Source: Nanohaloarchaea archaeon B1-Br10_U2g1 (lineage in GTDB: Archaea > Nanohalarchaeota > Nanosalinia > Nanosalinales > Nanosalinaceae). Taken from it: a stretch of DNA of 64,000 nt. Positions 20,176-58,925 of this stretch are shown here, piece after piece; position 1 is the first letter of the stretch, and each line of letters starts with the position of its first letter. The stretch is taken from positions 11,324 through 75,323 of the forward strand of contig LKMN01000002.1 in NCBI GenBank assembly GCA_001563875.1, written 5' to 3'. Under the pieces are notes generated by a model. It made no database searches. It saw only the letters and a list, made by a program, of their open reading frames with translations, and was not told where the DNA came from. The translations under genes were made by a program, and so were the position numbers.

Positions 20176-20209
20176 GTATGAAGAATTGGGTGCTAAGCTT
20201 TTACAGTTA

Positions 20210-20869
20210 TTACTGGTGTTTGAAGTACTTATTGAGCTGTTCTTTTCTGTCCGAAGGACCTACCAGAAGAAGGTTGTCCCCTACATCAAGACCTACGTTC
20301 ATATCCTTGGTTATAGTCTTACCTCCCTGAAGTATAGATACGATCTTGAAACGTTCAGGAAAAGAGTCTTCTCCTGTTATCTCGTCGACAGTTTTACCTC
20401 TAAGATCAGAGTTCTTCCTTACAGAAGCCTTTACAACCTCGTTTTCCTCCGAAAGGTTAGCAAGCTTCACAAGGTAGGGATGCTCTATACTGCTCATAAA
20501 CTCTGAAAGCATCAGACCTGTATGCGCTATAGTTTCGGCCTCTATCAGTTCAAAGGCCTCCATATACTCGTCGTTGACAACCTTGGATATAACTTTAGGA
20601 ACGCCGTACTTCTTCGCTAAGGAACAGACAACCATGTTCTCGTTATCATTGTTTAAAACAGATATAAGCGCGTCGGCCTCGGTTACTCCCGCATCCTCTA
20701 AAGCGGAAAGGGTTGCAGGATCTTTGTTTATCACTGTTGCTCCTGAAGACGCGTACAATCTTTCACATTTATCCTGATCCTCATCTATAACCACTACGTC
20801 ATGCCTGTCCTCAAGCTGTTTGACAAGCCTTCTTCCAAGAGTGGTTATCCCTGATACGATTATGTACAT
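20210..20869 (-). CDS. trkA: TrkA family K+ uptake regulatory subunit (RCK N+C)
   Basis: Degenerate Rossmann fold 'SGITTLG', 'DVVVIDED', 'LEDAGV'; adjacent to trkH. Confidence 0.85.
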   Translation of the reverse strand: MYIIVSGITTLGRRLVKQLEDRHDVVVIDEDQDKCERLYASSGATVINKDPATLSALEDAGVTEADALISVLNNDNENMVVCSLAKKYGVPKVISKVVNDEYMEAFELIEAETIAHTGLMLSEFMSSIEHPYLVKLANLSEENEVVKASVRKNSDLRGKTVDEITGEDSFPERFKIVSILQGGKTITKDMNVGLDVGDNLLLVGPSDRKEQLNKYFKHQ

Positions 20870-20871
20870 CT

Positions 20872-22320
20872 CTATTCAGAGTCTTTGAACAGCTCGCTAT
20901 TAAATATTGCCAGAAGCGGTATCATCTCAAGTCTTCCCGCAATCATGACTATAATCCATGTAAACTTGGTGACAGCGGAGAGATCAACCATTTCACTACC
21001 CTCCATGTAGACCGGTCCCATGTTCCCTGCCGCGGAAACCGTCCCTGACAACGCCGCCATAAGATTTGTGCCCTCGGCGTAAAGCACGATAAGCGTTCCT
21101 AAGAAGATTATGGATACCCAGCTGAAGAACAGTACTGAGATCGTTCTTATCATAGAGCTGTCCAGTATCTCTCCGTCTATCTTCACCTCGTTAATAGCCG
21201 ACTTAGGAAGCTTGTATGATCTCAAATGTGTTCTGAGAAGCTCTATCATAGCTTTCAAACGGAAAATCTTGAAACCTCCTGAAGTCGATCCAAGAGAGCC
21301 TCCTACAAACATTACGCCTATGAATGCTGCCTGTAAGCCAACTGTAAGCGATGTAAGTGTTATAGTTGAGTGTCCTGTTGAGGAAACCACTGCTGCAGAC
21401 GTGAAAACTCCATCAAAAACCGCTCTCTCCGGTGTAAAGCCCTGACGAATCAGCTCAAAACAGGTAAGCACAGACATAACTAGGAAAACCTTGAAGTAGA
21501 GCTTGAACTCTGCGCTTCTAAGGAATGATCCGTAATCCGTTCTAAGGAACCTGTAAAGAAGTACGAAGTTAACACCTCCCAGAAACATTAAGAGAATTGT
21601 AGCAGCTTCTATAGGAGTAGAGTTGAATCCTGCTATGCTTTCACCCATTGTAGAAAACCCTCCTGTCGAAATTCCGGAGAAAGAATGTAGAACAGAATCG
21701 AATGCCGGCATACCAAGCAGCACGTAGATACCTGCAAACAAGGCAGTTATGAAACCGTAAACTCTCCATAAGTCAGCTATGGATTTTGTCAGAGAAGGTC
21801 TTATAGAACCTGCATCTGTTTTATGGGACTCGGCAGAGTAAAGACTTCTTGTTGCAGCACCAGACTCTCTAATAACCACTATGAAGAATGTTAGTATCCC
21901 TAAACCTCCTATCCACTGCATGAAAGATCTCCAGAAAAGTATTGAACTTGGTAAGGTCTCTGGTGCTAAAACTATAGATATTCCTGTAGTTGTGAGACCG
22001 GCTGTAGCCTCAAAGACCGCATCTATTATATTTAAGTGTGTTAGAAATGGTATTGCTCCGAATACAACCGCAAGCACCCATCCAAGAACCGTGGCAAACA
22101 TCGCCTCGGATATATCCGGATTTCTAGAGCTTTCACCCTGTTTACCAGACATATAGATTGAATATCCCAGCACTAAAGAGGAGACGGAGGCAACTATAAA
22201 TCCCGAGATCTGAGCCAGACTTTCTCCATAGTAAACACCGACTATTATTGGCAGAGCTACTAAAACAGCGAAAATCTGGAGGAAAGCACCTACAATCCTC
22301 AGAATTACCGAGCTCCTCAT
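20872..22320 (-). CDS. trkH: TrkH family K+ uptake membrane protein
   Basis: 'FEATAGLTTTG', 'QWIGGLG', 'STGGFS', 'GSTSGGFK', 'GNMGP', 'GRLE'. Confidence 0.95.
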   Translation of the reverse strand: MRSSVILRIVGAFLQIFAVLVALPIIVGVYYGESLAQISGFIVASVSSLVLGYSIYMSGKQGESSRNPDISEAMFATVLGWVLAVVFGAIPFLTHLNIIDAVFEATAGLTTTGISIVLAPETLPSSILFWRSFMQWIGGLGILTFFIVVIRESGAATRSLYSAESHKTDAGSIRPSLTKSIADLWRVYGFITALFAGIYVLLGMPAFDSVLHSFSGISTGGFSTMGESIAGFNSTPIEAATILLMFLGGVNFVLLYRFLRTDYGSFLRSAEFKLYFKVFLVMSVLTCFELIRQGFTPERAVFDGVFTSAAVVSSTGHSTITLTSLTVGLQAAFIGVMFVGGSLGSTSGGFKIFRLKAMIELLRTHLRSYKLPKSAINEVKIDGEILDSSMIRTISVLFFSWVSIIFLGTLIVLYAEGTNLMAALSGTVSAAGNMGPVYMEGSEMVDLSAVTKFTWIIVMIAGRLEMIPLLAIFNSELFKDSE

Positions 22321-22372: not shown

Positions 22373-22436
22373 TTTATAAAGTTTGTATACGCATCTCCGA
22401 ACTGCTCGGAACGAAAACTGACTGAGCAAAGGTGAA
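22373..22436 (+). promoter_or_regulatory. TATA box, K-turn-like hairpin leader and SD of the rps6e operon
   Basis: TTTATAAA 22373-80; TGCTCGG-AAC-GA-AAACT-GA-CTGAGCA 22403-28; GGTGA 22431-35. Confidence 0.55.
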
Positions 22437-22443
22437 ACTAATA

Positions 22444-22815
22444 ATGAAGATTACAGTAGGAGATACAGACGGTAAAACACACCAAATCGAACTAGAAGAA
22501 AGCTCAAAAGTAGTTGGAAAGAAGATTGGAGACAGCTTTGAAGGAGGAATAGTAGGCTTAGACGGCTACAAACTTGAGATAACCGGTGGAAGCGACAAAC
22601 AAGGGTTCCCTATGAGAGAAAGTATCGAAGGAACAGGTAGAAGAAGTATACTACTCAAAAAAGGATCCGGAATAGACGAGGAAGAAAACGTTAGAAAGAG
22701 AAAAACCGTTAGAGGAAACACAGTCTCCGACGAAATAGAACAGCTAAACACCAAAGTTGTAGAAGAAGGAAATGAATCTGTAGAAGATCTTCTATCAGAA
22801 GAGGAAGAGGAGTAA
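22444..22815 (+). CDS. rps6e: 30S ribosomal protein S6e
   Basis: 'LEITGGSDKQGFPMR', 'RKRKTVRGN', 'QLNTK'; ATG 22444 after GGTGA. Confidence 0.96.
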   Translation: MKITVGDTDGKTHQIELEESSKVVGKKIGDSFEGGIVGLDGYKLEITGGSDKQGFPMRESIEGTGRRSILLKKGSGIDEEENVRKRKTVRGNTVSDEIEQLNTKVVEEGNESVEDLLSEEEEE

Positions 22816-22853
22816 AAACCTTTTCAACCCTGTAAAAAGGAGTTAAAACTATA

Positions 22854-24041
22854 ATGACTGAGATACCTGAGGCCAACATCGGACTAGTAGGACACGTCGA
22901 CCACGGAAAAACAACTTTAACGAACGCATTATCCGGTAAATGGACCGACGAACACTCTGAAGAACTGAAAAGAGGCATCACCATAAGACTAGGTTACGCC
23001 GATATAACCTATTACAGAGATAGTGACGGAAACCTCAACGTAAAAGAAGAAGGTGACGCCGAGAGAACTATTTCTCTGGTAGACGCTCCAGGACACGAAA
23101 CACTGATGGCCAACGTGCTTTCAGGAGCAGCAATAATGGACGGAGCAATACTTCTAGTCGCTGCAGATGAAGAGTGTCCTCAACCTCAGACAAGAGAGCA
23201 TTTAGCGGCTCTAAATATTGCAGGAGTTGAGAATATAGTAGTTGTACAGAACAAGATCGATAAAGTTTCTAAAGAAGAAGCTAAAGACAATTACAGACAG
23301 ATAAAAGAGTTCTTGAAAGGTTCTGTTGCCGAAGACGCTCCTATAGTACCTATATCAGCACAACAGGAGATTAACATCGATGCTCTTCTGGAAGCTGTAG
23401 ATGAAGAGATATCTACACCAGACAGAGATAGAGATGCGGACCCGAAGATGTTGTTAGCGCGTTCATTCGATATAAACAAGCCCGGAACTAAGACAGAAGA
23501 TCTGAACGGCGGCGTAATCGGCGGAAGCCTTGTTAAAGGAGAGTTAGAAGTAGGAGATAAAATTGAGGTAAGGCCCGGAGTACGTATCGGCGGAAAATGG
23601 AAGCCTGTTAAGACAAAGGTAAGAAGTATACTACAAGGAGGAAAACCAGTAGAGAAAGGAAGTCCAGGGGGATTACTGGCTGTAGAGACAGAACTGGATC
23701 CTGCTCTGGCTAAGTCCGATGGATTATCTGGAAACGTTTTGGGCGTTGAAGACAAGCTTCCTGATACTTTAGATGAGATAGAGGTTGAGGTAGAGCTTAT
23801 GGAGAGACTTGTTGGTTCAGAAGACGAGAAGGAGATTGAGAATATCAAGAAGAAAGAACCTTTGATGCTTAACGTTGGAACAGGTAAGTCCGCAGGGATA
23901 GTAACAGGTCTAGGTAAAACCGTTGAACTCAACCTTAAAGCACCCGTCTGTGCCGAGGAAGGAGACCGAATCGCGATTTCGAGGCAGATAGGCTCTAGAT
24001 GGAGGCTTATTGGCCACGGCAAAATTGTGTCTACACAGTAG
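22854..24041 (+). CDS. eif2g: Translation initiation factor aIF2 gamma
   Basis: GHVDHGKT, 'RGITIRLGYA', DAPGH, QPQTREH, NKID, 'RSFDINKPG', 'WRLIGHG'. Confidence 0.97.
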   Translation: MTEIPEANIGLVGHVDHGKTTLTNALSGKWTDEHSEELKRGITIRLGYADITYYRDSDGNLNVKEEGDAERTISLVDAPGHETLMANVLSGAAIMDGAILLVAADEECPQPQTREHLAALNIAGVENIVVVQNKIDKVSKEEAKDNYRQIKEFLKGSVAEDAPIVPISAQQEINIDALLEAVDEEISTPDRDRDADPKMLLARSFDINKPGTKTEDLNGGVIGGSLVKGELEVGDKIEVRPGVRIGGKWKPVKTKVRSILQGGKPVEKGSPGGLLAVETELDPALAKSDGLSGNVLGVEDKLPDTLDEIEVEVELMERLVGSEDEKEIENIKKKEPLMLNVGTGKSAGIVTGLGKTVELNLKAPVCAEEGDRIAISRQIGSRWRLIGHGKIVSTQ

Positions 24042-24072
24042 GCTACCGGGTTTTTTATACTGTAGAACGTGA

Positions 24073-25638
24073 ATGATGGTTATGGTAGACTTTCTAACTC
24101 CTTTAATTGATTTTATAAGCAGAGATCAAGCCACGGTACAAATACTAGTTACTCTTTCAATTTTGGTTCTAGGCCATCTACTCACGAAATTTGTTAAGAC
24201 GGTCGGTAGAAGGGTCTGGGTAGCAAGAGAAGGCATCACAAAAAAGGAGTTAAGGAGAAGACAGGAAGGACTGAAATATGTAGGGTATATCATAGATGCA
24301 TCCGCCATATCAGTAGCTCTACTTTACCTAAATACAGGCATAACAGGTTCAGTAGTTGAGCAGGCAGCCGAGTTTGCACCAAACCTGCTTTCAGCGATGC
24401 TTATCGCAGTCCTTGGAATACTAACGATACAGATAGTTACACGTGCTGGAGAGAACTTCCTAAGAACGATGGGAGTTCAAAACTACTTCAGAGAGTTAGG
24501 AGTCTCCTACAACGGAATTAGAATTATAACAGGTTTCTTCAAGGCTTTCCTATACCTACTGCTTCTCCAAGTGGCGCTAGACCAGCTTGGGGTAGGAGAC
24601 AGCTTTGTAAGAGAACTTATTACAGCCTCATCATGGGCAGCAGCGTTCCTAGTAGCAGGACTACTCATATACGGTTTTAAAGATCTTATAGCAAACTTCG
24701 CAGCAGGTATCTACCTAAAGAGTTCAAGACTAGTCAAACCTGGAGAGAAAGTGTATCTTGAGGAAGATTCTGGTGAGATACGTAGCGTAGATCTTTTCAG
24801 CACCGAAATAGGTACCGGAGAAGGATACAATCTTGTGACACAGAACAAGAACATTATGAATGCAGATCTCAAGTTCAAGAGAACCAAAGGAGATCTAAAC
24901 ACCTTAGAAGATATCAAGAGATACTTCACAGCCCAAGATCCTTCTTACTGCGGTCCTGCATCCGCAGAGATGGCGTTAAACATCTTCGGATACCGTTTCA
25001 ACCAGCAGGAGATAGGAGATATGGCCGGTACAGAGAAAGGGGTTGGAACAATGCCGGACGAATTAATAGAGGTTGTAGAGAACTTGACTGACGAAGAAGT
25101 TAGAGGTGCTTACGTAGAGTACGACAAGATAACGGATCTATCAGACGAGTTCAAGACCTGGTTTAACGACGGAGCTCTAATAATACCTAACTTTGCGAAG
25201 CCGGTACTTTTCCCTCAGGCAGATACAGCGCATTACAGCCTATGTGTGGCCGTAGAAGGAGATGAGCTACTGGTAGTTGATCCTAGCGCCAACACTGTTT
25301 CAGGCGGGGTATACTACGCGGACAGCTCGGAGATGCTGGAAGCTATGGGAGAGTTCGAAGGCCGTACCAGAGGATATATCGTACTGGCTCCAGAGGATAC
25401 AACCGCGTACTGGAGAATCAAAGAGGACCTTATTTACTCGGACGAGAACCTGTACGACCATATAAATAAGAACATGGAGCTTCAGCTCCGTAGAATCCTG
25501 AGACAGGGCAGAATACTGAAGAATGTTCTACCGGAAGATCTTCAGGACTACATAGAGAAGTGGGAGAAGGATGAAAAAGTTGGAAGGGTATGGAAGCCTG
25601 ACGGAGGGGAAGAAGATGAAGACACTGATACTAGGTAA
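24073..25638 (+). CDS. MscS-channel / phytochelatin-synthase(C39)-like papain-fold fusion protein
   Basis: ~5 TMs and an MscS beta-domain ('FAAGIYL...VKPGEKV...GEIRSVDLFSTEI'), then 'FTAQDPSYCGPAS', 'AHYSL', 'LVVDPS', 'LEAM...GRTRGYIVL' (Cys293/His387/Asp403). Confidence 0.8.
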   Translation: MMVMVDFLTPLIDFISRDQATVQILVTLSILVLGHLLTKFVKTVGRRVWVAREGITKKELRRRQEGLKYVGYIIDASAISVALLYLNTGITGSVVEQAAEFAPNLLSAMLIAVLGILTIQIVTRAGENFLRTMGVQNYFRELGVSYNGIRIITGFFKAFLYLLLLQVALDQLGVGDSFVRELITASSWAAAFLVAGLLIYGFKDLIANFAAGIYLKSSRLVKPGEKVYLEEDSGEIRSVDLFSTEIGTGEGYNLVTQNKNIMNADLKFKRTKGDLNTLEDIKRYFTAQDPSYCGPASAEMALNIFGYRFNQQEIGDMAGTEKGVGTMPDELIEVVENLTDEEVRGAYVEYDKITDLSDEFKTWFNDGALIIPNFAKPVLFPQADTAHYSLCVAVEGDELLVVDPSANTVSGGVYYADSSEMLEAMGEFEGRTRGYIVLAPEDTTAYWRIKEDLIYSDENLYDHINKNMELQLRRILRQGRILKNVLPEDLQDYIEKWEKDEKVGRVWKPDGGEEDEDTDTR

Positions 25639-26425
25639 AGACTTCGAGACAGAGATGTTTGAGGAACACTTTGAGGAGGTAGAGGAAAAATCTCTCGCAG
25701 ACACCATGATAACTATGAACGGTGGCAGCGAGGTCTTGATAAACGGAGAAGATATAGAGACCTGGGACGCTGTCTATATCCAGCCAGAGTCAAAGGCTGT
25801 ACAGTTCTCAAGAGTCTTGATGGAGACACTTTCTCTCAAAGAGATACACTGTAATCTGAATACCTCTGTATTCATACCTGTAAAAAAGCCTTACCTACTA
25901 CAGGTACTTTCAGAAAAAGAGGTTAAAACCCCTGTTCAGACAAGTATCTCGACAGAGAAAGGTCTCACCGAGATCGAAAAAGAGGTTGAGTTCCCGGTTG
26001 TAACTAAAAAATACAGGAATCTAGATCTTGAGGAGACAAAGATATTTGATAATTTTGAGAATCTTAAGAAGTTCTGTGAAAATACCGAACACGGAGAAAG
26101 CTTTGTAGTAATCCAAGAGTATTCCGAAGAAGATGTTTTCGATATACTGTATATAGACGGAGATATTATCTCTCTAAAGCTAGAGGATAATCCTTGGAGC
26201 TCCGAAGAAGTAGTAACCGGAAAGTACCACAGTCTTTCAGACAAGCAGAAAGAGGTTGTAAAAGATGCTGTCTCAGCTATAGGCCTTAAGATATGTAGTT
26301 TAAGATTAAACGGTACAGAGGTCATGGATGTTAAAAACGATCCTCAGCTCGAAAGATTCAGAGAAGAGAGCGGTAAAAACGTTTATGGAAGAGTTGCATC
26401 AATGTTAGAAGGTGATCAAGATTAA
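25616..26425 (+). CDS. Degenerate RimK-like ATP-grasp protein
   Basis: 'KKPYLLQVL...VKTP', 'FPVVTK', 'VIQEY' retained; Gly-loop, DxR, D and EVN motifs altered. GGAGG SD supports ATG 25616. Confidence 0.72.
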   Translation: MKTLILGKDFETEMFEEHFEEVEEKSLADTMITMNGGSEVLINGEDIETWDAVYIQPESKAVQFSRVLMETLSLKEIHCNLNTSVFIPVKKPYLLQVLSEKEVKTPVQTSISTEKGLTEIEKEVEFPVVTKKYRNLDLEETKIFDNFENLKKFCENTEHGESFVVIQEYSEEDVFDILYIDGDIISLKLEDNPWSSEEVVTGKYHSLSDKQKEVVKDAVSAIGLKICSLRLNGTEVMDVKNDPQLERFREESGKNVYGRVASMLEGDQD

Positions 26426-27296
26426 GTGTGCAGTAATATACGGAAGCAAGTCAGCACAACACCAGTACTTCATAGAGAAAGGTAAAGAGTACTTCGACAA
26501 AGTTCTCGGCGTTCCTCTAGAAGGTGTGAGAACGGTTTATGATGGAGATGGCGCTCATTTAATGTACAAGAACACCGATCTATGTGAGTTCGATGCCGTA
26601 TACCTAAGGCTTCTAGGAAACGACTTGATGTACGGCGAACATCTACCTGAAATACTGGATGAGAACAATGTATACACCCAGCTTGAATCGGAAGCTCTAG
26701 CAATAGCCTCTAACAAGTTCCATATGATGAAGGTCCTAGGAGAGTCAGGTCTGCCTGTCCCCGATTCAATCTACACTCTTTCAACAGAAGAAACCGAAAG
26801 AGCAGGAGAAACATTAGGATACCCCAACATAATCAAGATAATATCAGGTTATGGAGGGAAAGGAGTAATCAAAGCAAACTCTGAATCCGATATAGGACCC
26901 ATAACTGATGCTTTAACACTTTTCGAACAGGAAATCTGTGTACAGGAGTATATTGACAATCCTGGCGAAGACATACGTATAACGGTAGTAGGAGACGAAA
27001 CATTCGCATACAAAAGGGTTGGAGGAGAAGAAGAGTTCCGTTCAAATATATCTGCAGGAGGCAACAGAGAATCCTTTGAACCTTCTGAAGAAATGAAAGA
27101 ATCTGCCATAAACGCTGCAAGACTCTGCGGCCTGGACATCGCAGGAATAGACATAATTGAGGATGAGAAAACCGGCGAAATTTATCTTGGAGAGGTAAAC
27201 GCTTCGCCCGGCGTCGAAGGAACAGAAGAAGTTTTGGAAGTTGATATGGCCAAAAAGATAATGGCTTTTATCAAAAAGAAGGCCGCGGAGCGGTAA
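26412..27296 (+). CDS. RimK family ATP-grasp amino acid (glutamate) ligase
   Basis: 'ASNKF', 'GLPVP', 'IIKIISGYGGKGV', 'VQEYI', 'DIRITVVG', 'FRSNISAGG', 'AGIDII', 'EVNASPG'. Confidence 0.92.
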   Translation: MIKIKCAVIYGSKSAQHQYFIEKGKEYFDKVLGVPLEGVRTVYDGDGAHLMYKNTDLCEFDAVYLRLLGNDLMYGEHLPEILDENNVYTQLESEALAIASNKFHMMKVLGESGLPVPDSIYTLSTEETERAGETLGYPNIIKIISGYGGKGVIKANSESDIGPITDALTLFEQEICVQEYIDNPGEDIRITVVGDETFAYKRVGGEEEFRSNISAGGNRESFEPSEEMKESAINAARLCGLDIAGIDIIEDEKTGEIYLGEVNASPGVEGTEEVLEVDMAKKIMAFIKKKAAER

Positions 27297-28320
27297 ACTC
27301 CTCAAAGCTTTGAGCCAGTATCTCTTTAGCCTCAGTCATCTCCTCCTCTGAGAAAGCGTTCAAAGCCGGAACCCCTACATAATCTTCTACAGTATCTTTC
27401 CCAACGGTCGTATCAGTAATCGGTCCTGACATAAACGAGAGCTCGTAATCCAGATCAGTTAAAACCTTTTTTAGGCCGTATGCTCCCATAACATCTAAGC
27501 TTACACCACAAATACTGAATATTGAGTTCTTTACATCTAGATCTCTTAGAACTTCTTGGACATGGTAGTTACTGATCAGCCCTGCACCAAACTCTATAAC
27601 TATGAAGTCAAGATCTTCGTTCCAAGCATGGTTGATCAAGCCTTTAGCAGAGGATATAACTATCTCAGGATCATCTACAGTTGAAGGCAGTCCTGCATCA
27701 ACAAAATCCAGTGATATCTCTGAACCGGATTCAAACATGCTTACTCGGTCTCTTTCTCTTGCGGAACCAGTAAGTTTCAAGGAACCAACTTCATACTCCT
27801 CTGAAAGGTTTTCAATTATCTTCGTAGCCAGTGTTGTCTTTCCTGCATCCATCCTGGTCGAGACAACGCCCACCAGTCTTGGCTCTCCTTCAATCTCTTC
27901 AACTCTTTCAATACCATAATCTTTCATGTTCAAGATCTTTTCGTCCTGTGAGACGTATCCAAGAAACTCTGCCTCACATGGCTCTCCTAAATTCTTTGCA
28001 GCGCTTAAACAGTCTCCGAAAACGCCTCCCGAGCCTATGAAATCTATTCGATCGCCTTCACTGACTTCATCAGGCACTTCTCCAATATATCCTTTGACTC
28101 CTGCCCGGTTTCCAAACGTTCCAAGGACTATATCTCCCTCTTCAATCTCTACGAGCTCTCCTCCAGGGAGATCCAGTTCGTTGTAGTCGCCTTTTTTCTC
28201 TGTTATCTTTACTGCTACAACATCCCCTACCTGAGGTCTATGTCCGCTTTCAACTATCTCTGAACTATCTGTTATCTCTATCCTTTTCAGGCACGAGGCC
28301 TTGTAATCATGTCTAACCAT
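27271..28320 (-). CDS. DUF1611-family P-loop protein
   Basis: 'PQVGDVV', 'GNRAG', 'STRMDAGKTT', 'KLTG', 'DFVDAGLPST', 'SGPITD'. Confidence 0.75.
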   Translation of the reverse strand: MVRHDYKASCLKRIEITDSSEIVESGHRPQVGDVVAVKITEKKGDYNELDLPGGELVEIEEGDIVLGTFGNRAGVKGYIGEVPDEVSEGDRIDFIGSGGVFGDCLSAAKNLGEPCEAEFLGYVSQDEKILNMKDYGIERVEEIEGEPRLVGVVSTRMDAGKTTLATKIIENLSEEYEVGSLKLTGSARERDRVSMFESGSEISLDFVDAGLPSTVDDPEIVISSAKGLINHAWNEDLDFIVIEFGAGLISNYHVQEVLRDLDVKNSIFSICGVSLDVMGAYGLKKVLTDLDYELSFMSGPITDTTVGKDTVEDYVGVPALNAFSEEEMTEAKEILAQSFEEFTAPRPSF

Positions 28321-28383: not shown

Positions 28384-28770
28384 ATGACTAAGGAAATAAT
28401 ACTTGACACCAACTTTTTGGTAGCTCCTTTCCAGCTATCGATCAGTCTTTTTGAGGATATAGAGGAGCTGTATCCTTTTGCAGAGATATACACTATAGAC
28501 GACGCTGTTGAAGAGTCCAAAAGCATTAAGTCAGGTAAATACGGCGACTTAGTGGAAAAGCTTATTGATACACAAGGAATCAAAGTCTTGGAGACCGAAG
28601 GAGAAGGCAGTGTCGATGATCTTCTTGTAAAGCTTTCTGACGAATACATTGTGGCTACTAACGACAAAGAGCTGAAACAGAGAGTACTGGACAGAAACAA
28701 TCCTGTGATGATCATAAGGTCAAGAAGCCATCTAGAAGTTGTTAAAGGCCGAGAGCACGACCTCGGCTAA
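28384..28770 (+). CDS. PIN-domain protein (Utp24/Fcf1-like)
   Basis: 'ILDTNFL', 'VDD', 'VATNDKELKQR'; conserved position before rpo7. Confidence 0.9.
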   Translation: MTKEIILDTNFLVAPFQLSISLFEDIEELYPFAEIYTIDDAVEESKSIKSGKYGDLVEKLIDTQGIKVLETEGEGSVDDLLVKLSDEYIVATNDKELKQRVLDRNNPVMIIRSRSHLEVVKGREHDLG

Positions 28771-28848
28771 ACCCTTCTCCAGACTATAAAAACAAACACA
28801 ATTTAAAACTTGCGAAGAATCCTGTAATTAGTTCTAGGTCGAGAAAAT

Positions 28849-29421
28849 ATGTACAAAAGGCTGACAATAGAAGACAAGGTCCGGGTGCCGCCTCAGCACT
28901 TCGGTGAAGATGTAGAGGACAGCGTTAAAGCAGGACTCGAATCAGAAGTAGAGGGAACAATAAACTCTGAGATAGGAGTAGTAATAGCTGTAGAAAAAGT
29001 TAACAGTATCGAAGGAGGCGATATAGAGCCGGAAGATGCAGGAGTACACTACGATGTAGAGTACGAAGCTATAGTATACGAACCAGAGCTACACGAAGTC
29101 GTAAACGGAGAGGTAGTCGATATAACAGAGTTCGGAGCATTCGTAAGAATCGGTCCTTTCGACGGTCTATGCCACGTCAGCCAGGTAATGGACGACTACG
29201 TTAACTACGATGAAGAGAACGCAATGCTTGTATCCGACGAAGAACAGTTCACACTGGAAATCGGGGACGTACTCACAACAAGAATAATCGCGGTCTCACT
29301 CGACAAACAGGATACCAACAAAGTAAACCTGACAATGAGACAGCCAGGTCTAGGAAAACAGGAATGGATTGAAAAATACGAAGAAGAACAAGAAGAAGCC
29401 GAAGAGGCAGAAACTGAATAA
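28849..29421 (+). CDS. rpo7: RNA polymerase subunit Rpo7 (E')
   Basis: 'DKVRVPP', S1 domain 'FGAFVRIGPFDGLCHVSQ', 'LTMRQPGLGK'. Confidence 0.97.
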   Translation: MYKRLTIEDKVRVPPQHFGEDVEDSVKAGLESEVEGTINSEIGVVIAVEKVNSIEGGDIEPEDAGVHYDVEYEAIVYEPELHEVVNGEVVDITEFGAFVRIGPFDGLCHVSQVMDDYVNYDEENAMLVSDEEQFTLEIGDVLTTRIIAVSLDKQDTNKVNLTMRQPGLGKQEWIEKYEEEQEEAEEAETE

Positions 29422-30269: not shown

Positions 30270-31268
30270 ATGATAGTCCTTGGAATTGAGTCTACAGCCC
30301 ATACTTTAGGGATTGGTATAGTCAGAGAGGAAAAAGTAGGAGTTAATAAGAAATGGGACTGTCTTGCCAGCCAGAAATCAATGTTTGAACCAGACCAAGG
30401 AGGCATACATCCTAGGAAGGCTGCGGAACACCATTATCAACATGCTTTGGAGCTTCTTAACAATGCCGAACAGGAAGCTGGTATAGATATCTCTGAGGTT
30501 GACGGAATAGCGTTCTCACAAGGACCTGGTATCCCTCAGTGTCTTGATACGGGAGCTGTAATCGCGAGAAGTTTAGCAGAAAAACACGGTATCCCTCTTA
30601 TAGGTGTGAACCACTGTCTCTCACACATTTCTATAGGTACTAGGACTACGAAAGCGGACAACCCGACAACCCTGTACGTATCCGGAGGGAACAGCCAGAT
30701 AATAGACTACCGTAAAGGCCGGTACCGAGTAATAGGAGAGACACAAGACATTGCATTAGGAAATGCATTGGACAAGCTAGCTAGAACAATGGGATATCCT
30801 CATCCTGGAGGACCAGAGATTGAAAGACTCGCAGAACAGACAGATGAAATCGTGGAGCTTTCATATCCCGTTAAAGGTATGGACTTTTCATTCTCGGGTA
30901 TAGTGACAGAGACACAGAGAACGGTTGGAGACCTAGAGGACCAGGTTTTAGCAAACAGCTTCCAAGAGCACGCATACGCCGTAGTGGTTGAGGCTCTTGA
31001 GAGAGCGATGAGTCAAGAAGACTCAGAAGAAGCACTACTGACAGGAGGGGTAGCTATGAACTCCCGGTTAAGAGAAATGGTGAGAACAATGTGCGAACAA
31101 CGAGGAGCTAAAGCTTACTTCCCACCTAAAGAGTACTGTATGGACAATGGAGTCATGATAGCGGAACAAGGACTTCTAGAACTTAAGGCCGGAAGTAAAA
31201 CAAGGATAGAAGAGTCTACAAAGAAGCCTAACTGGAGACCTGACGAGGTAGAAGTAGAATGGATCTAG
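30270..31268 (+). CDS. kae1: tRNA N6-adenosine threonylcarbamoyltransferase Kae1
   Basis: 'LGIESTAHT', 'GGIHP', 'SQGPG', 'VNHCLSHI', 'VSGGNSQ', 'YCMDNGVMIA'. Confidence 0.97.
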   Translation: MIVLGIESTAHTLGIGIVREEKVGVNKKWDCLASQKSMFEPDQGGIHPRKAAEHHYQHALELLNNAEQEAGIDISEVDGIAFSQGPGIPQCLDTGAVIARSLAEKHGIPLIGVNHCLSHISIGTRTTKADNPTTLYVSGGNSQIIDYRKGRYRVIGETQDIALGNALDKLARTMGYPHPGGPEIERLAEQTDEIVELSYPVKGMDFSFSGIVTETQRTVGDLEDQVLANSFQEHAYAVVVEALERAMSQEDSEEALLTGGVAMNSRLREMVRTMCEQRGAKAYFPPKEYCMDNGVMIAEQGLLELKAGSKTRIEESTKKPNWRPDEVEVEWI

Positions 31269-31861
31269 ATAAAGCAAAAAAAGTGATTCAAGAAGGCGGA
31301 ATAGTAATTTATCCGACAGAGACAGCTTACGGCATAGCTGCAGATGCAATGAACTCGGAAGCTGTACGAAAAGTTTTTGAGGCGAAAAATCGCCCGAGAG
31401 ACAAAGGATTAACTGTAATAGTAGACAGCTTAGAGACCGCTGAGAGGTATTCAGAGCTTTCAGAAAAGGAGAGAAACATTGTGAAAGAGTTTATGCCCGG
31501 TCCTTTAACACTTGTTACAGAGAAAAAAGATTCTGTACCCGATGTTCTAAACGAGAAATTTGTTTTCCGTATATCTTCCAGTCCTATAGCAAGAAAACTT
31601 GCTGAAAACGGACCTATAACCGCTACAAGCGCCAATATTTCTGGAGAAGATACAAGTTATTCTGTTGGAGATATCTCTGAAGAATTAAAAACAAGTGCAG
31701 ACTACGTTATAGATACAGGGCTCTTAGAGCAGAAACCTACGTCTACCATAGTAGAGATACAGGTAGAAGAAATTAAGATACATCGTAAAGGCCCTATAAG
31801 CAAGGAACAAATTGCAGACGTGTTAAAGAATGACAGCAGGGATAACGGCATTAGTAACTGA
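31259..31861 (+). CDS. L-threonylcarbamoyladenylate synthase (TsaC/YrdC type, no Sua5 C-domain)
   Basis: 'YPTETAYG', 'KNRP', 'PGPLT', 'TSANISG', 'STIV'. Confidence 0.93.
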   Translation: MDLDKAKKVIQEGGIVIYPTETAYGIAADAMNSEAVRKVFEAKNRPRDKGLTVIVDSLETAERYSELSEKERNIVKEFMPGPLTLVTEKKDSVPDVLNEKFVFRISSSPIARKLAENGPITATSANISGEDTSYSVGDISEELKTSADYVIDTGLLEQKPTSTIVEIQVEEIKIHRKGPISKEQIADVLKNDSRDNGISN

Positions 31862-33527
31862 TTTTGCACTTCTAATAGCGACAGCAACTTTGCTAGGCAT
31901 ATTTGCTAAAAAGACGAAACAACCTACTATAATCGCCTATATTCTGACCGGTCTGGTTTTGGGACCTGTAGTCTTCGGAGTAGTAGGAGAATCAGAACTA
32001 ACCTATCTTATGTCTGAACTTGGTTTGGGGCTCTTACTCTTCTTACTGGGAATTGAGATGAACTTGAAGGAAATAAAAGATATTTTACGCCCTGTAACCA
32101 GTATTGCAATATGGCAAACTGTTTTACAAACCTCTCTAGCCTTCATAATACCTTTATTTTTAGGCTTCACAATTATGGAAACTATAATCATTGCTCTATG
32201 TACTGTTTTCGGAGCTACTCCCGTAATTGTCAAATTGTTAACAGATAAAGACGAAATAACTAGTTTACCAGGAAAAATCGATGTCGGAGTGCTGATACTT
32301 CAAGATATCTACTTAGTGATTATATTAGCTCTGCTTGCGGCAGACATATTCTCGAACCCCGATCTTGCAGGCATTGGACTTACATTAGGAAAAATTTTCC
32401 TTCTAATGGGCATGATAACTGTGCTAAGTCTTGCATCTTCAAAATACATCCTGCCCGGATTATTCCGGATATCTGCATCGAATAAACACACATTATTCAT
32501 TCACGGAATTACATGGGCTTTCCTTTTCATATCTCTGGCCTTAGCACTGGATCTATCTGTAGAGGTAGGCGCGTTCTTAGCAGGGCTAGGCCTGGGACAG
32601 ATACCTTATAGAGAGGAGCTTAAGGAACGTGTAAGGCCCTTAACCGACTTCTTCATGGTGATATTTTTCTCAAGTATAGCGCTGACTATAAACCGAGATA
32701 ATCTTTTCGCTTACTGGCAAGAAGCCATAGTAGCATCTATAATCCTCATGGTTGGTAATTTCCTAATAATGTTCTATCTTATTGATAGGCAGCATTTTAC
32801 ACCAAAAACCAGCTTTTTAGGAAGCTTGAACATGACACAGGTTTCCGAGTTCTCATTAGTTGTAGGAGCCTTAGCGGTTAGTCAAGACTATGTTGGTAAC
32901 GATATACTAGGCTACCTGTCACTTATGGCTTTACTGACTATGTCTACATCATCTTACTTAATCCAGTATAACCAGGAGATTTACCAGAAAGCTGCGCCTT
33001 ATCTGAAGAGGTTTGAAGCCGAACATAAGAAAGATGTAGAGCTCAGAACACTGGATAACCACATAGTTATCGTAGGATACAACCAGATTTCTAAACAGGT
33101 AATTTCTATACTAAAAGAATCTGATAAAGATATAGTGGTAGTTGACAGAAACAGCGATAATACGGCGCAACTAGAGTCTAGAGACGATATAGACTACATA
33201 TACGGCGATATACAGCACAGCGAGATAAGAAAGACTGCAGGAGTGAAAAGAGCAGACCTTGTATTTTCTCTAAGTCCTGAGTACGAGATAAACAAGAAGA
33301 TCGCTATTGAAAGCCCTGATGCAGCTCTATTTGTTAAAGCCAGAAGATTTGAAGAGGCGGCAGAACTTTACGAAGCCGGAGCACATTATGTACTACTGAA
33401 ATCGGAAATCGCATCAGATCAGATAGTCGAATATCTAGAAGCTTACCTAGAGGACAAGTCTCTCTTCCTAGAAATGACAGAAACCGATAAAGAACGAATA
33501 AGGTGGAGTGAAAAAGAAAAATGGTAG
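31830..33527 (+). CDS. CPA2/Kef-type cation:proton antiporter with RCK domain
   Basis: 'QPTIIAYILTG', 'LILQD', 'GAFLAG', 'QVSEFS', C-terminal 'IVGY...YIYGD'. Confidence 0.92.
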   Translation: MTAGITALVTDFALLIATATLLGIFAKKTKQPTIIAYILTGLVLGPVVFGVVGESELTYLMSELGLGLLLFLLGIEMNLKEIKDILRPVTSIAIWQTVLQTSLAFIIPLFLGFTIMETIIIALCTVFGATPVIVKLLTDKDEITSLPGKIDVGVLILQDIYLVIILALLAADIFSNPDLAGIGLTLGKIFLLMGMITVLSLASSKYILPGLFRISASNKHTLFIHGITWAFLFISLALALDLSVEVGAFLAGLGLGQIPYREELKERVRPLTDFFMVIFFSSIALTINRDNLFAYWQEAIVASIILMVGNFLIMFYLIDRQHFTPKTSFLGSLNMTQVSEFSLVVGALAVSQDYVGNDILGYLSLMALLTMSTSSYLIQYNQEIYQKAAPYLKRFEAEHKKDVELRTLDNHIVIVGYNQISKQVISILKESDKDIVVVDRNSDNTAQLESRDDIDYIYGDIQHSEIRKTAGVKRADLVFSLSPEYEINKKIAIESPDAALFVKARRFEEAAELYEAGAHYVLLKSEIASDQIVEYLEAYLEDKSLFLEMTETDKERIRWSEKEKW

Positions 33528-39738: not shown

Positions 39739-39821
<83 letters not shown>

Positions 39822-46106: not shown

Positions 46107-46181
46107 GCGGCCGTGGTGTAGTCCGGCTAATCATTTCGGCCTTTCGAGCCGACGACCCGGGTTCAAATCCCGGCGGCCGCA
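46107..46181 (+). tRNA. tRNA-Glu(TTC)
   Basis: GCGGCCG/CGGCCGC acceptor, TCGGC-CTTTCGA-GCCGA anticodon arm, CCGGG-TTCAAAT-CCCGG T arm. Confidence 0.97.
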
Positions 46182-58850: not shown

Positions 58851-58925
58851 GGTGGAGGTAGGTTAGCTGGTCCATACTCCGACCTTGTGGCGGTCGGGAC
58901 GCGGGTTCGAATCCCGCCCTCCGCC
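58851..58925 (+). tRNA. tRNA-His(GTG) with encoded G-1
   Basis: G-GTGGAGG/CCTCCGC-C acceptor, CGACC-TTGTGGC-GGTCG anticodon arm, GCGGG-TTCGAAT-CCCGC T arm. Confidence 0.95.

What the first reader, a model, noticed from the sequence alone, without database searches (positions are those of the whole stretch)
24073..28320. Candidate novel system: MscS-phytochelatin-synthase-like fusion + dead/live RimK ATP-grasp pair + DUF1611, inserted in a core operon
Seen: three overlapping co-oriented genes plus a convergent DUF1611 gene whose 3' end overlaps by 26 nt. The block sits exactly between aIF2-gamma and the PIN gene, which are normally neighbours in the archaeal rps6e-aIF2g-PIN-rpo7 cluster. Known: RimK ligases add glutamates; phytochelatin synthases are gamma-glutamyl-peptide transpeptidases; DUF1611 includes DgcN, a D-glutamate N-acetyltransferase; haloarchaea use gamma-Glu-Cys as their main thiol. 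Inference: the enzymes converge on glutamyl-peptide chemistry, and one is physically attached to a tension-gated channel. That suggests synthesis, trimming or transpeptidation of a glutamyl peptide (osmolyte, thiol or polymer) coupled to import from the host or to release. It would parallel C39-ABC (PCAT) exporters but use MscS. I do not know of a described system like this.
Basis: partly seen in the sequence, partly recalled or inferred. Interest (0 to 1): 0.9.

Follow-up and report, generated by a model that had tools for sequence, protein, structure and literature searches.

The report
Channel-tethered peptidase with glutamate-ligase cassette
Salt-loving nano-sized archaea carry, inside a core translation gene cluster, a conserved cassette joining a pressure-release membrane channel fused to a peptidase-like domain with a glutamate-adding ligase pair, probably to make and trim glutamate chains, though what it makes has not been tested.

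Summary
A (24073-25638) is an MscS channel core fused to a cytoplasmic papain-fold domain (Pfam Peptidase_C39_2). B is a catalytically dead RimK paralogue and C an intact RimK-family ligase. D is a convergent P-loop protein, only remotely DUF1611-like.

A-B-C is not peculiar to this genome. B and C occur in 65 of 70 Nanohaloarchaeota genomes and A in 64. In 20 of 20 loci examined they lie directly after S6e-aIF2gamma. D is accessory, present in 19 of 70.

The slot after C is variable and holds other amidoligases and carboxypeptidases: GCS2, TTL/YheCD-type ATP-grasp, MATCAP and AstE/AspA. A's catalytic Q-C-H-D set is intact here and in 32 of 64 genomes. It is lost in 31, and 22 of those carry a MATCAP gene in the cassette, against 0 of 32 intact ones.

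The cassette moved as a unit: it matches another genus better than its congener, unlike the flanking genes.

Best reading: a new archaeal variant of RimK-type ligase/peptidase systems (RimBK, RloABC), anchored on a tension-gated channel. Glutamyl chemistry is supported by family membership. Product, target and the osmotic link are inferred. Structure and complex predictions could not be run.

The parts
24073..25638 (+). Gene A: MscS-type channel core fused to a papain-fold (Peptidase_C39_2-like) cytoplasmic domain, 521 aa. Predicted transmembrane region covers about aa 1-207, the MscS beta domain aa 208-267, the C39-like core aa 268-430, a conserved extension aa 431-505 and an acidic tail aa 506-521.
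   Evidence: Pfam matches. PDB MscS chains at E 3e-4 to 1.5e-3 align to aa 100-265 only. The hydropathy scan passed four peaks at the threshold (aa 20-40, 105-123, 151-169, 182-207); a fifth helix at about aa 68-88 is my reading of a weaker hydrophobic stretch. The loop aa 41-72 holds 10 K/R. From this I infer N-terminus out and C-terminus in. 43-sequence alignment with invariant N208, A210, Y214, L215, M300, D403, P404, W447, R448.
24934..25281 (+). Span holding the codons of the papain-type catalytic set of A: Q288 (24934-24936), C293 (24949-24951), H387 (25231-25233), D403 (25279-25281).
   Evidence: Intact here. Intact in 91 of 120 database orthologues and in 32 of 64 phylum genomes. D403 is invariant.
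25571..26425 (+). Gene B: catalytically dead RimK-like ATP-grasp paralogue, 284 aa from ATG 25571 or 269 aa from the likelier start at ATG 25616.
   Evidence: No Pfam hit. Its family profile hits RimK structures 7qyr at 7.7e-11 and 4iwx at 4.7e-7. hhalign to C's family gives probability 99.5. The Gly-rich loop, D-x-R, R-S-N, and the Mg-binding D and E-x-N motifs are all replaced. GGAGG lies upstream of 25616.
26412..27296 (+). Gene C: RimK-family alpha-L-glutamate ligase, 294 aa, with all ATP-grasp catalytic motifs intact.
   Evidence: PF08443 at 7.5e-36. TIGR00768 at 155.8 bits against cut-off 143.4. E. coli RimK structures at E 4e-31. Invariant K142, G146/G148/G149/G151, Q178, D187, R189, R210-S211-N212, D247, E261, N263 in 17 orthologues. 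It is the only RimK-family gene in the genome.
27271..28320 (-). Gene D: accessory P-loop (SIMIBI/MobB/dethiobiotin-synthetase-like) protein, 349 aa, with Walker A around G160-K161-T162-T163. It is a remote relative of the DUF1611 C-terminal domain.
   Evidence: No Pfam family at E<=0.01; weak MobB at E 0.024. Invariant M157, G160, K161, T162 in 79 relatives. 20 of 79 relatives hit DUF1611_C and 28 of 79 hit MobB. Present in 19 of 70 genomes, always convergent next to C.
22432..24041 (+). Upstream flank: ribosomal protein S6e (22432-22815) and aIF2gamma (22854-24041), co-oriented with A-B-C.
   Evidence: Pfam. The same order is seen in 20 of 20 loci.
24051..24059 (+). T6 run plus a TTTATA box-like element between the aIF2gamma stop codon and A. 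It lies about 26 nt before ATG 24082 (Met4 of A). This may be a terminator and an own leaderless promoter for A; that is inference only.
   Evidence: Sequence read directly. The database copy of A is 518 aa, which starts at Met4.
28384..29421 (+). Downstream flank: PIN_9 protein (28384-28770) and Rpo7 (28849-29421), followed by Spt4, S24e, Kae1 and Sua5.
   Evidence: Pfam. The names of the further genes are my own, from the translations. PIN is seen beyond the variable slot in 18 of 20 loci.

Best explanation
This is the minimal form (A, B, C and D) of a cassette conserved across Nanohaloarchaeota. It belongs to the RimK-centred 'amidoligase plus peptidase' systems.

C is the only RimK-family ligase in the genome. 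It most likely adds alpha-linked glutamates, ATP-dependently, to a carboxylate acceptor, either a free peptide or a protein C-terminus. B, its dead paralogue, most likely serves as a non-catalytic partner.

A is an MscS-type tension-gated channel. The usual alpha-beta domain of its cytoplasmic part is replaced by a papain-fold domain, here with an intact Q-C-H-D set. That would place seven peptidase sites under the pore if A is a heptamer like other MscS channels, on the same side of the membrane as the ligases. I read this domain as the trimming or hydrolysing counterpart of C, as RimB is to RimK. I read the channel as tying glutamate/oligoglutamate turnover to membrane tension, that is to osmotic state, and possibly to efflux of the small products.

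D, judged from its relatives' place in bacterial arginine operons, probably acts on the amino group of glutamate (N-acylation) and would feed or cap the chain.

Shown: architecture, motif states, conservation, synteny, co-transfer, and the alternation of accessory genes. Inferred: glutamate as substrate, the nature of the product, B-C and A-B/C contacts, and the osmotic link.
For: 1. Families and motifs. C passes the RimK-family cut-off and keeps every catalytic motif. B is homologous but lacks them. A has the MscS pore helix and beta domain plus a C39_2 domain, with the catalytic set intact.

2. Co-occurrence. B and C are each found in the same 65 of 70 genomes, and A in 64 of these. The exception, G007, has a contig that ends at B. 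All three are absent from G001, G002, G006, G051 and G054. A-B-C are co-linear after aIF2gamma in 20 of 20 loci.

3. Co-transfer. Against congener G021, aIF2gamma is 87% and Rpo7 90% identical, but A is 53%, B 33% and C 43%. Against G058, of another genus, aIF2gamma is 73% and Rpo7 69%, but A is 65%, B 57%, C 77% and D 68%. On the tree of A, G000 joins that genus (support 99*).

4. The variable slot holds only amidoligases and carboxypeptidases or deacylases: GCS2, TTL/YheCD ATP-grasp, a third RimK-like gene, MATCAP and AstE/AspA.

5. Peptidase alternation. Of 32 genomes with the catalytic set intact, 0 have a MATCAP gene in the cassette. Of 31 with it lost, 22 do. All 13 cassettes with GCS2 and all 18 scorable cassettes with D have the set intact.

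6. Topology. The papain-fold domain is predicted to be cytoplasmic.

7. Precedent. [quoted passage not shown]

8. D. Its bacterial relatives lie between argR/argG and argC-argD-argF-argB in 35 of 35 loci of at least 4.5 kb. ArgC is seen downstream in 32 of them; the other 3 show none in the fetched stretch.
Against: - No experiment or transcript data exist. No RNA run was listed.
- C is not an equivalog of any characterised RimK-family enzyme: RimK 124.7 bits against cut-off 331, MptN 133 against 350, LysX 114 against 276. Glutamate as substrate rests on family membership alone.
- The C39-like core is net acidic, -12 per 100 residues. That is not what a polyglutamate binder would be expected to look like, although the conserved extension aa 431-505 is close to neutral and arginine-rich.
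- Half of the phylum keeps the domain without its catalytic residues, so its universal role cannot be catalysis.
- The MATCAP alternation rests on few independent events. There are 4 independent pairs, sign test median p 0.25. Nine genomes with an intact set have a different MATCAP elsewhere. G007, whose A is not assembled, has MATCAP next to D.
- D's relatives have no ATP-grasp neighbours in 0 of 35 bacterial loci, so the D-C link is specific to this phylum.
- Neither a fold nor a complex could be predicted.
Confidence: 0.5

Rival explanations
1. Protein-tail editing. C, helped by B, glutamylates the acidic C-terminus of a specific protein, for example ribosomal protein S6e or another product of the surrounding translation/transcription cluster. 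A's domain removes the added residues. The channel part only localises or regulates the eraser. This would be an archaeal counterpart of bacterial S6 glutamylation or of the tubulin tail code.
For: - The cassette lies directly after S6e-aIF2gamma, on the same strand, in 20 of 20 loci.
- RimK's known protein target is a ribosomal protein with a Glu-ending tail (PMC11957051, passages).
- S6e here ends in ...SEEEEE, and all 20 orthologues have acidic tails.
- Relatives' cassettes add TTL-like ligases, MATCAP and AstE/AspA. The eukaryotic counterparts of these edit tubulin tails (MATCAP family: PMC10499314, start of abstract only).
- An ATP-grasp protein, CDC123, binds eIF2gamma in eukaryotes (PMC4431377, abstract and passages).
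Against: - Archaeal S6e is unrelated to bacterial S6 (established knowledge).
- The last residue of S6e is not conserved; it is E, A, S or G among the 20.
- Acidic tails are common in this proteome: Rpo7 and S24e have net charge -19 per 100 residues.
- B and C are RimK-like, not of the CDC123/R2K clade.
- A TATA-like box and a T-run in front of A suggest a transcription unit of its own.
- Tethering an eraser of ribosome marks to a channel has no precedent.
Confidence: 0.2
2. Thiol-peptide metabolism. The papain-fold domain works like a phytochelatin synthase or prokaryotic PCS-like hydrolase on gamma-Glu-Cys-type peptides, and the ligases build such peptides.
For: - Phytochelatin-synthase clusters are structural neighbours of an orthologue's domain (TM 0.54-0.57).
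- PF05023 is among the precomputed Pfam hits of P0058, P0071 and P0076, 3 of the 120 orthologues listed, and of 3 of the 22 fragments.
- 13 genomes carry a GCS2 (glutamate-cysteine ligase family 2) gene directly after C, and all 13 have the catalytic set intact.
- The TTL-like ATP-grasp genes also hit the glutathione-synthetase ATP-grasp model.
Against: - This genome has no GCS2 and no YheCD/TTL-type ATP-grasp.
- A itself does not match PF05023. C39_2 clusters are equally close structural neighbours.
- RimK-family enzymes make alpha- rather than gamma-linkages (established for RimK).
- GCS2 is a broad carboxylate-amine ligase family.
Confidence: 0.1
3. PCAT-like maturation and export. The C39-like domain cleaves a leader from a peptide, and the MscS pore lets the product out.
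For: - The C39_2 match.
- The domain is on the cytoplasmic side of a pore-forming protein, as in PCAT exporters (recalled).
Against: - There is no room for a precursor gene. The gaps are 31 nt before A and 63 nt after D, and the genes overlap.
- Peptidase_C39 proper is below its cut-off (16.8 against 22 bits).
- There is no ABC or other energised transporter.
- The catalytic set is lost in 31 of 64 genomes while the fusion is kept.
- PADLOC gives no hit.
Confidence: 0.05
4. No common function. An MscS variant, a ligase pair and a P-loop enzyme merely share an insertion hot spot.
For: - The slot after C is plainly a variable region.
- D's relatives work in another context, arginine operons.
Against: - A, B and C are present or absent together in 69 of 70 genomes. 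The one exception is a contig end.
- The genes overlap.
- The cassette is exchanged as a unit between lineages.
- Accessory content co-varies with A's catalytic state.
Confidence: 0.05

Closest known systems
RimK with RimB (rimABK of Pseudomonas; RimK of E. coli)
   Same: A RimK-family ATP-grasp ligase is encoded next to a dedicated peptidase. In the known system the ligase makes poly-alpha-L-glutamate and glutamylates a protein tail, and the peptidase removes glutamates and modulates the ligase (PMC11957791, abstract). C is most similar to E. coli RimK among solved structures (E 4e-31).
   Different: - The peptidase here is papain-fold and fused to a channel, not a soluble retropepsin. No PF05618 gene is in the genome.
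- There is an extra dead paralogue, B.
- Archaea lack the bacterial S6 target.
- C is below the RimK equivalog cut-off.
rloABC operon of Pseudomonas aeruginosa
   Same: An ATP-grasp ligase related to RimK sits beside a membrane protein carrying a papain-superfamily domain that may be catalytically inactive, plus a peptidase for acidic stretches. The phenotype is hypo-osmotic stress tolerance (PMC11957051, passages). Here the membrane part is itself an osmotic-shock channel, and the papain-fold domain is inactive in about half of the phylum.
   Different: - RloB is a 7TM protein with a periplasmic inactive transglutaminase domain. A is an MscS core with a cytoplasmic C39_2-like domain, active-looking in this genome.
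- There is no retropepsin here.
- I did not test homology between A and RloB.
Amidoligase gene neighbourhoods described by Iyer, Abhiman, Burroughs and Aravind 2009 (Mol Biosyst 5:1636)
   Same: Combinations of ATP-grasp and GCS2-type ligases with peptidases, predicted to make peptides or peptide tags. This matches the content of the variable slot in relatives.
   Different: I saw the paper only as a reference-list entry. It is not held, so its content is recalled. I cannot say whether an MscS fusion is mentioned there.
PCAT exporters (C39 peptidase fused to an ABC transporter)
   Same: A papain-fold C39-type domain is fused to the cytoplasmic side of a membrane conduit. Degenerate, non-catalytic C39-like domains also exist there (recalled).
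   Different: The partner is a passive tension-gated channel. There is no ATPase and no precursor peptide, and Peptidase_C39 proper is below its cut-off.
MscS-family channels with replaced or added cytoplasmic domains (for example the glutamate-exporting MscCG of Corynebacterium; recalled)
   Same: The pore helix and beta domain are conserved. MscS-type channels are known to pass glutamate (recalled).
   Different: The match to MscS ends at the beta domain (aa 265). The rest is a peptidase-like domain plus a 75-residue conserved extension. In the literature I searched, I found no described MscS with such a domain.
Tubulin tail enzymes (TTL/TTLL ligases, MATCAP and M14-type carboxypeptidases)
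   Same: Relatives' cassettes combine RimK-type and TTL-like ATP-grasp ligases with MATCAP-family and AstE/AspA-family hydrolases. This is the same enzyme families as, or sister families to, those that add and remove residues on acidic tails.
   Different: The window's own cassette has none of these accessories. One unlinked AstE/AspA-like gene lies on another contig. No tubulin-like target is known here.

Membership tests
MscS channel family (PF00924/PF05552) | Pore-lining last transmembrane helix followed by the beta domain | tested here: met
   PF05552 at 29.8 bits (cut-off 22) and PF00924 at 21.8 bits (cut-off 20.2). E. coli MscS chains align to aa 100-265 at E about 1e-3. N208, A210, Y214 and L215 are invariant in 43 orthologues.
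MscS channel family (PF00924/PF05552) | Cytoplasmic alpha-beta domain and C-terminal barrel that close the vestibule | tested here: not met
   No MscS match beyond aa 265 to 266. The region is occupied by the C39_2-like domain.
MscS channel family (PF00924/PF05552) | Heptameric, tension-gated conductance | not testable with these tools
Peptidase_C39_2 / papain-fold clan | Sequence match over the curated cut-off | tested here: met
   PF13529 at 29.4 bits (cut-off 24), aa 288-404. For orthologue P0056, C39_2 clusters are structural neighbours at TM 0.54-0.70.
Peptidase_C39_2 / papain-fold clan | Gln-Cys-His-Asp catalytic set | tested here: met
   Q288, C293, H387 and D403 are present in the window protein. 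Which positions are catalytic is inferred from motif position and recalled papain-fold knowledge, not from a structure.
Bacteriocin-processing Peptidase C39 (PF03412) / PCAT | Match over the cut-off, fusion to an ABC transporter, double-glycine precursor nearby | tested here: not met
   PF03412 at 16.8 bits, below cut-off 22. There is no ABC domain in A and no space for a precursor gene.
Phytochelatin synthase (PF05023) | Sequence match to the family model | tested here: not met
   No hit at E<=0.01 for the window protein. There is only structural neighbourhood of an orthologue (TM 0.54-0.57), and precomputed PF05023 on P0058, P0071 and P0076, 3 of the 120 orthologues listed.
RimK family alpha-L-glutamate ligase (TIGR00768, PF08443) | Family match over the cut-off and a complete set of ATP-grasp catalytic motifs (gene C) | tested here: met
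   155.8 bits against cut-off 143.4. Motifs are invariant in 17 orthologues and aligned to E. coli RimK.
RimK proper (ribosomal protein S6--L-glutamate ligase, PRK10446) | Equivalog-level score; bacterial S6 as target | tested here: not met
   124.7 bits against cut-off 331. Bacterial S6 has no archaeal homologue (established knowledge).
RimK family (gene B) | Catalytic motifs of the ATP-grasp fold | tested here: not met
   Homology is clear. However, the Gly-rich loop, D-x-R, R-S-N and the Mg-binding residues are all replaced in the alignment.
DUF1611 (PF07755 with PF17396; DgcN-type) | Match to the C-terminal P-loop model and to the N-terminal domain model | tested here: not met
   - No hit for D at E<=10.
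- 1 of 9 orthologues hits at E 0.067, and 20 of 79 wider relatives hit DUF1611_C (best 1.9e-6).
- No DUF1611_N hit was listed.
- No PDB DUF1611 chain was found with the family profile.
- No NCBIfam family other than weak MobB matches.
D is a remote relative, not a member.
RimBK / RloABC-type ligase-peptidase systems | RimK-type ligase genetically coupled to a dedicated peptidase, with or without a membrane papain-fold protein | tested here: met
   A-B-C are coupled in 64-65 of 70 genomes and exchanged as a unit. The peptidase and the membrane protein are one polypeptide here.
RimBK / RloABC-type ligase-peptidase systems | Retropepsin-like protease (PF05618) | tested here: not met
   0 matches in the 96.75%-complete genome.

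The most novel reading that the evidence does not exclude
The cassette is a mechano-chemical osmostat. It would be a heptameric tension-gated channel whose cytoplasmic cage is built from seven peptidase (or peptide-binding) domains. This cage works with a RimK pair to interconvert osmotically silent, possibly N-acylated, oligo-glutamate and free glutamate, and to vent the products. Membrane tension would then directly set the balance between polymer and osmolyte. That would be a principle of osmoregulation not described before, kept by almost a whole phylum of tiny salt-in symbionts and wired into their core translation gene cluster.
Probability: 0.15. Interest if true: 0.85.

Novelty: new variant of a known kind. 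Interest (0 to 1): 0.65.

Why it matters
Nanohaloarchaeota have genomes of 0.5-1.7 Mb; this one is 0.71 Mb. Yet 65 of 70 keep this cassette, next to genes for translation and transcription. So it is likely central to their physiology, and nothing is known about it.

It offers three things. First, it is a natural fusion of a mechanosensitive channel with an enzyme domain, a way to ask whether membrane tension can control chemistry. Second, it is an archaeal branch of the RimK-type ligase/peptidase systems, whose products and targets are still debated in bacteria. Third, it is a natural experiment: three cassette flavours in which an active papain-fold site alternates with a MATCAP-type metallopeptidase.

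In passing, it also points to a candidate for the missing first enzyme of arginine synthesis in a group of soil bacteria.

Tried and rejected
- Structure prediction of D and of A's C-terminal domain was not accepted. No fold search was possible.
- Complex prediction (B, C and A aa 268-521) was never queued because the queue was full. No result exists, so nothing can be said about binding.
- The ESM Atlas does not hold the window's own A or D. I used orthologues P0135 and P0056 instead.
- The search for related loci in genome contigs with A gave only 4 loci. I used the genome search instead.
- The alignment A4 was too diverse for a metagenome scan. The scan was therefore run with a bacterial subset, A5. 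It samples one bacterial clade only.
- No RNA holder was listed for the region.
- No stand-alone relatives of A's C-terminal domain were found, only fragments of the same fusion.
- No Rfam family lies in the cassette. There are no PADLOC hits.
- S6e as a RimK-like target: the acidic tail is conserved, the terminal residue is not. I kept this only as a rival.
- CDC123-like link to aIF2gamma: B and C are RimK-like, not R2K-like. I kept this only as a remark.
- 'MATCAP replaces the dead peptidase' was softened. A different MATCAP subfamily exists elsewhere in 9 genomes with an intact catalytic set, and beside D in G007. Only 4 independent contrasts exist.
- Literature. No paper holds both Nanohaloarchae* and RimK, or both DUF1704 and ATP-grasp. 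Searches were swamped by unrelated meanings of MSCs and DGCN. Supplements were not consulted.

Full report
**Observation**

The region holds four ORFs exactly as described.
- A is at 24073-25638 (+, 521 aa).
- B is at 25571-26425 (+, 284 aa).
- C is at 26412-27296 (+, 294 aa).
- D is at 27271-28320 (-, 349 aa).

C and D converge and overlap by 26 nt. B and C overlap by 14 nt. A and B overlap by 68 nt. That overlap is 23 nt if B starts at ATG 25616. ATG 25616 is preceded by GGAGG, and most orthologues begin to align there.

Upstream lie S6e and aIF2gamma. Downstream lie a PIN_9 protein and Rpo7. Homologue names place the organism in the Nanohaloarchaeota. The assembly has 709,831 bases in 26 contigs and is 96.75% complete.

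**What the four proteins are**

*Protein A.* A matches the MscS 'conserved TM helix' and beta-domain models, then Peptidase_C39_2 at aa 288-404. All three matches are above their cut-offs. Peptidase_C39 proper is below its cut-off, and phytochelatin synthase is not hit. Solved MscS chains align only to aa 100-265. So the usual alpha-beta domain of MscS is replaced.

A hydropathy scan passed four peaks at its threshold, and I read a fifth, weaker hydrophobic stretch at about aa 68-88 as a helix. The loop aa 41-72 holds 10 K/R. From this I infer five helices, the N-terminus outside and the papain-fold domain in the cytoplasm. The set Q288, C293, H387, D403 is intact. After the core comes a strongly conserved 75-residue extension with invariant W447, R448, R477 and W497, then an acidic tail.

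For orthologue P0056, the structural neighbours of the Atlas model of this domain are C39_2 and phytochelatin-synthase clusters alike (TM 0.54-0.57). The top neighbour is a cluster of MscS-C39_2 fusions labelled Woesearchaeota.

*Protein C.* C is a RimK-family ligase: PF08443 at 7.5e-36, TIGR00768 at 155.8 bits against cut-off 143.4, and E. coli RimK at 4e-31. All ATP-grasp motifs are invariant in 17 orthologues. It is below the equivalog cut-offs of RimK, MptN, LysX and CofF.

*Protein B.* B has no Pfam hit. Its family profile finds RimK structures (7.7e-11) and aligns to C's family at probability 99.5. The glycine loop, D-x-R, R-S-N and the metal-binding residues are all replaced. The 'dead/live pair' is therefore confirmed.

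*Protein D.* D is a P-loop protein of the MobB/dethiobiotin-synthetase kind. It has no DUF1611 hit of its own. Its ~345-aa family includes bacterial members at 33-38% identity. More distant members carry PF07755. Of 79 aligned members, 20 match DUF1611_C and 28 match MobB. The Atlas neighbours of an orthologue are clusters with DUF1611 on 11-16% of members. NCBIfam gives no family other than weak MobB matches. D is thus a remote relative of DUF1611, not a member.

**Distribution**

Among the 70 genomes of the phylum held, B and C are each found in the same 65. A is found as a strong match (E 1e-75 or better) in 64 of these. The tool's tally of 67 for A includes three genomes with only plain-MscS-level hits. 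G007 lacks A because its contig ends at B. G001, G002, G006, G051 and G054 lack all three. D is in 19 of 70, always convergent beside C.

In 20 loci fetched from three families, the order S6e-aIF2gamma-A-B-C is kept in 20 of 20. PIN-Rpo7-Spt4-S24e follows beyond a variable slot in 18 of 20.

In a library of 1.84 billion representatives, 54 clusters match A at E<=1e-30. Nearly all are full-length fusions of 436-544 aa. Beyond them come only plain MscS proteins. The C-terminal domain alone finds only fragments of the same fusion. The insertion into the core cluster is therefore old and phylum-wide, not a peculiarity of this genome.

**The variable slot and the state of A's active site**

The genes between C and PIN in relatives fall into these families:
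- D, sometimes with an AstE/AspA-family hydrolase.
- GCS2 with a TTL/YheCD-type ATP-grasp.
- One to three TTL-like ATP-grasp genes, or a third RimK-like gene, with a MATCAP-family metallopeptidase and sometimes AstE/AspA.

I scored A's four catalytic positions in all 64 genomes.

| Catalytic set | Genomes | MATCAP in cassette | MATCAP elsewhere or on another contig | No MATCAP found |
|---|---|---|---|---|
| Intact | 32 | 0 | 9 | 23 |
| Lost | 31 | 22 | 4 | 5 |
| Not scorable (G034) | 1 | | 1 | |

All 13 cassettes with GCS2 directly after C have the set intact. So do all 18 scorable cassettes with D.

On a tree of 61 A proteins, the state changes at least 4-5 times. In the 4 independent contrasts, in-cassette MATCAP goes the opposite way (3.3 on average, never the same way). 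Four pairs cannot reach significance (median p 0.25).

Three caveats apply.
- The nine 'elsewhere' MATCAPs belong to a higher-scoring subfamily. In the five of them whose surroundings I fetched, the MATCAP gene lies beside a ~900-970-aa ORF.
- G007, whose A is unassembled, has that subfamily next to D.
- Related genomes are not independent samples.

Even so, the pattern fits a peptidase role that is carried either by A's own domain or by a cassette-encoded metallopeptidase. The domain itself is always retained: D403, P404 and M300 are invariant. This suggests a second, non-catalytic role in the channel's cage or in binding.

**The cassette moves as a unit**

| Compared with | aIF2gamma | Rpo7 | A | B | C | D |
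|---|---|---|---|---|---|---|
| G021 (same genus) | 87% | 90% | 53% | 33% | 43% | absent |
| G058 (another genus) | 73% | 69% | 65% | 57% | 77% | 68% |

G021's A has lost the catalytic set. On the tree of A, the window joins G058's genus (support 99*). Replacement in place of the whole cassette is independent evidence that A, B, C and D work together.

**A lead on D**

Eighty metagenome loci were found with a profile of bacterial D relatives. These are named Acidobacteriota, Pyrinomonadaceae, Gracilibacteria and Peregrinibacteria. Thirty-five of the loci are at least 4.5 kb.

In 35 of 35, the D homologue lies inside an arginine operon: argR, often argG, then D, then argC-argD-argF and an amino-acid kinase. 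ArgC is seen downstream in 32, and the other 3 show none in the fetched stretch. None of the 35 has an ATP-grasp neighbour. The scan's hits form one related set.

I saw no gene for the first step, N-acetylation of glutamate, in the loci examined. So the family is a candidate glutamate N-acyltransferase or a functional substitute. In Nanohaloarchaeota the same kind of enzyme beside a glutamate ligase suggests an N-blocked glutamyl product. That RimK-like enzymes can extend N-acetylated acidic amino acids is recalled knowledge, not tested here.

**How it most likely works**

C, with B as a non-catalytic partner, builds alpha-glutamyl chains in the cytoplasm. D may supply or cap an N-acyl-glutamate end. 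A's cytoplasmic papain-fold sites cleave these chains. A's MscS core links the process to membrane tension and may vent glutamate or short products.

The closest described systems have the same logic.
- The rloABC operon combines an ATP-grasp, a polyglutamate-cleaving protease and a membrane protein with an inactive papain-superfamily domain, and is needed under hypo-osmotic stress. Its authors discuss glutamate/polyglutamate homeostasis (PMC11957051, passages).

In this window a Trk potassium-uptake pair lies just upstream and a Kef-type gene downstream. These are my names, from the translations. In two other families a plain MscS gene sits beside S6e. This fits an osmotic theme but proves nothing.

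Points against this reading:
- The papain-fold core is net acidic.
- C is not an equivalog of RimK.
- Half the phylum has an inactive domain.
- There are no expression, fold or complex data.

I give this reading 0.5.

**Rivals**

- Editing of an acidic protein tail, with S6e or a neighbour as target: 0.2.
- Thiol-peptide chemistry of the phytochelatin type: 0.1. This is more plausible for the GCS2-type cassettes than for this one, whose genome has no GCS2.
- PCAT-like export: 0.05.
- No common function: 0.05.

**Novelty**

The parts are known families, and the logic (ligase, eraser, membrane papain-fold protein) has bacterial precedents. So this is a new variant of a known kind.

What I did not find described:
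- the MscS-peptidase fusion;
- its obligate pairing with a dead/live RimK pair;
- its near-universal place in the core gene cluster of a phylum;
- the three cassette flavours.

My searches found no paper with both Nanohaloarchae* and RimK. Nothing relevant came up for mechanosensitive plus C39 plus Nanohaloarchaeota. Iyer et al. 2009 could not be read, and supplements were closed, so earlier mention there cannot be excluded.

Noticed in passing
L055-L134 (metagenome loci), e.g. L116:5977-7038 and L101:5959-7110: Bacterial relatives of D (33-38% identical) lie inside arginine operons (argR, often argG, then the D homologue, then argC-argD-argF-argB) in 35 of 35 loci of at least 4.5 kb. ArgC is seen downstream in 32; the other 3 show none in the fetched stretch. 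I saw no N-acetylglutamate synthase gene in the loci examined, so this uncharacterised ~345-aa family is a candidate for that missing step.
   Followed up: partly
window 24073-28320 against G021:C34 and G058:C1: The whole A-B-C-D cassette of this genome resembles that of another genus far more than that of its congener, while the flanking aIF2gamma and Rpo7 show the opposite. This points to in-place cassette exchange between lineages. The congener's A has lost the catalytic set and it has no D.
   Followed up: yes
L135:6474-7817, L136:6713-7855, L138:6666-7796, L139:6651-7766, L140:6145-7350: A second, higher-scoring MATCAP subfamily (E 1e-44 to 1e-53) lies outside the cassette in several genomes with an intact catalytic set. 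It is always near a ~900-970-aa ORF of unknown identity. In G007 (L137:1137-2282) it sits between an AstE/AspA-like gene and D.
   Followed up: partly
G000:C14, L164:5677-6450: The window's genome has one AstE/AspA-family gene (257 aa, PF24827 at 3e-13). It is unlinked to the cassette and lies between phosphoglycerate kinase and a class I Trp/Tyr-tRNA synthetase. It could act in trans on N-acyl-Glu or acidic tails.
   Followed up: partly
window 18772-22320 and 31830-33527; L041:11078-11935, L042:11835-12725, L044:14748-15671: Ion-homeostasis genes surround the cluster. Trk-type potassium uptake genes lie divergently upstream of S6e, and a Kef-type antiporter-like gene lies downstream (my names, from the translations). 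In two other families a plain ~290-aa MscS gene sits between S6e and the Trk genes.
   Followed up: no
window 24051-24059: A T6 run followed by TTTATA sits between the aIF2gamma stop and A, about 26 nt before the third in-frame ATG, at 24082 (Met4 of A). This suggests a terminator and an own leaderless promoter for the cassette.
   Followed up: no
A orthologues of families f4 and f5, e.g. L039-L046 (C-terminal tails): The acidic C-terminal tail of A carries a conserved motif (K/Q)(L/I)DEFT followed by acidic residues in two families. In the window's group it is replaced by a looser E/D/T-rich tail. Its function is unknown. It could be a recognition element or a substrate tail.
   Followed up: no
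ESM Atlas cluster seen from P0056; P0269-P0309: MscS-C39_2 fusions also occur in a 73-member cluster labelled Woesearchaeota, and in representatives only 26-36% identical to A. Most of those examined keep Q-C-H-D (31 of 46 examined). The architecture may therefore extend beyond Nanohaloarchaeota. Their gene neighbourhoods could not be fetched.
   Followed up: partly
window 30270-31861; 39739-39821, 46107-46181, 58852-58925: Overlapping Kae1-like and Sua5-like genes (my names, from the translations) follow the S24e gene. There are three tRNA genes elsewhere in the window (Rfam) and no other RNA family hits.
   Followed up: no
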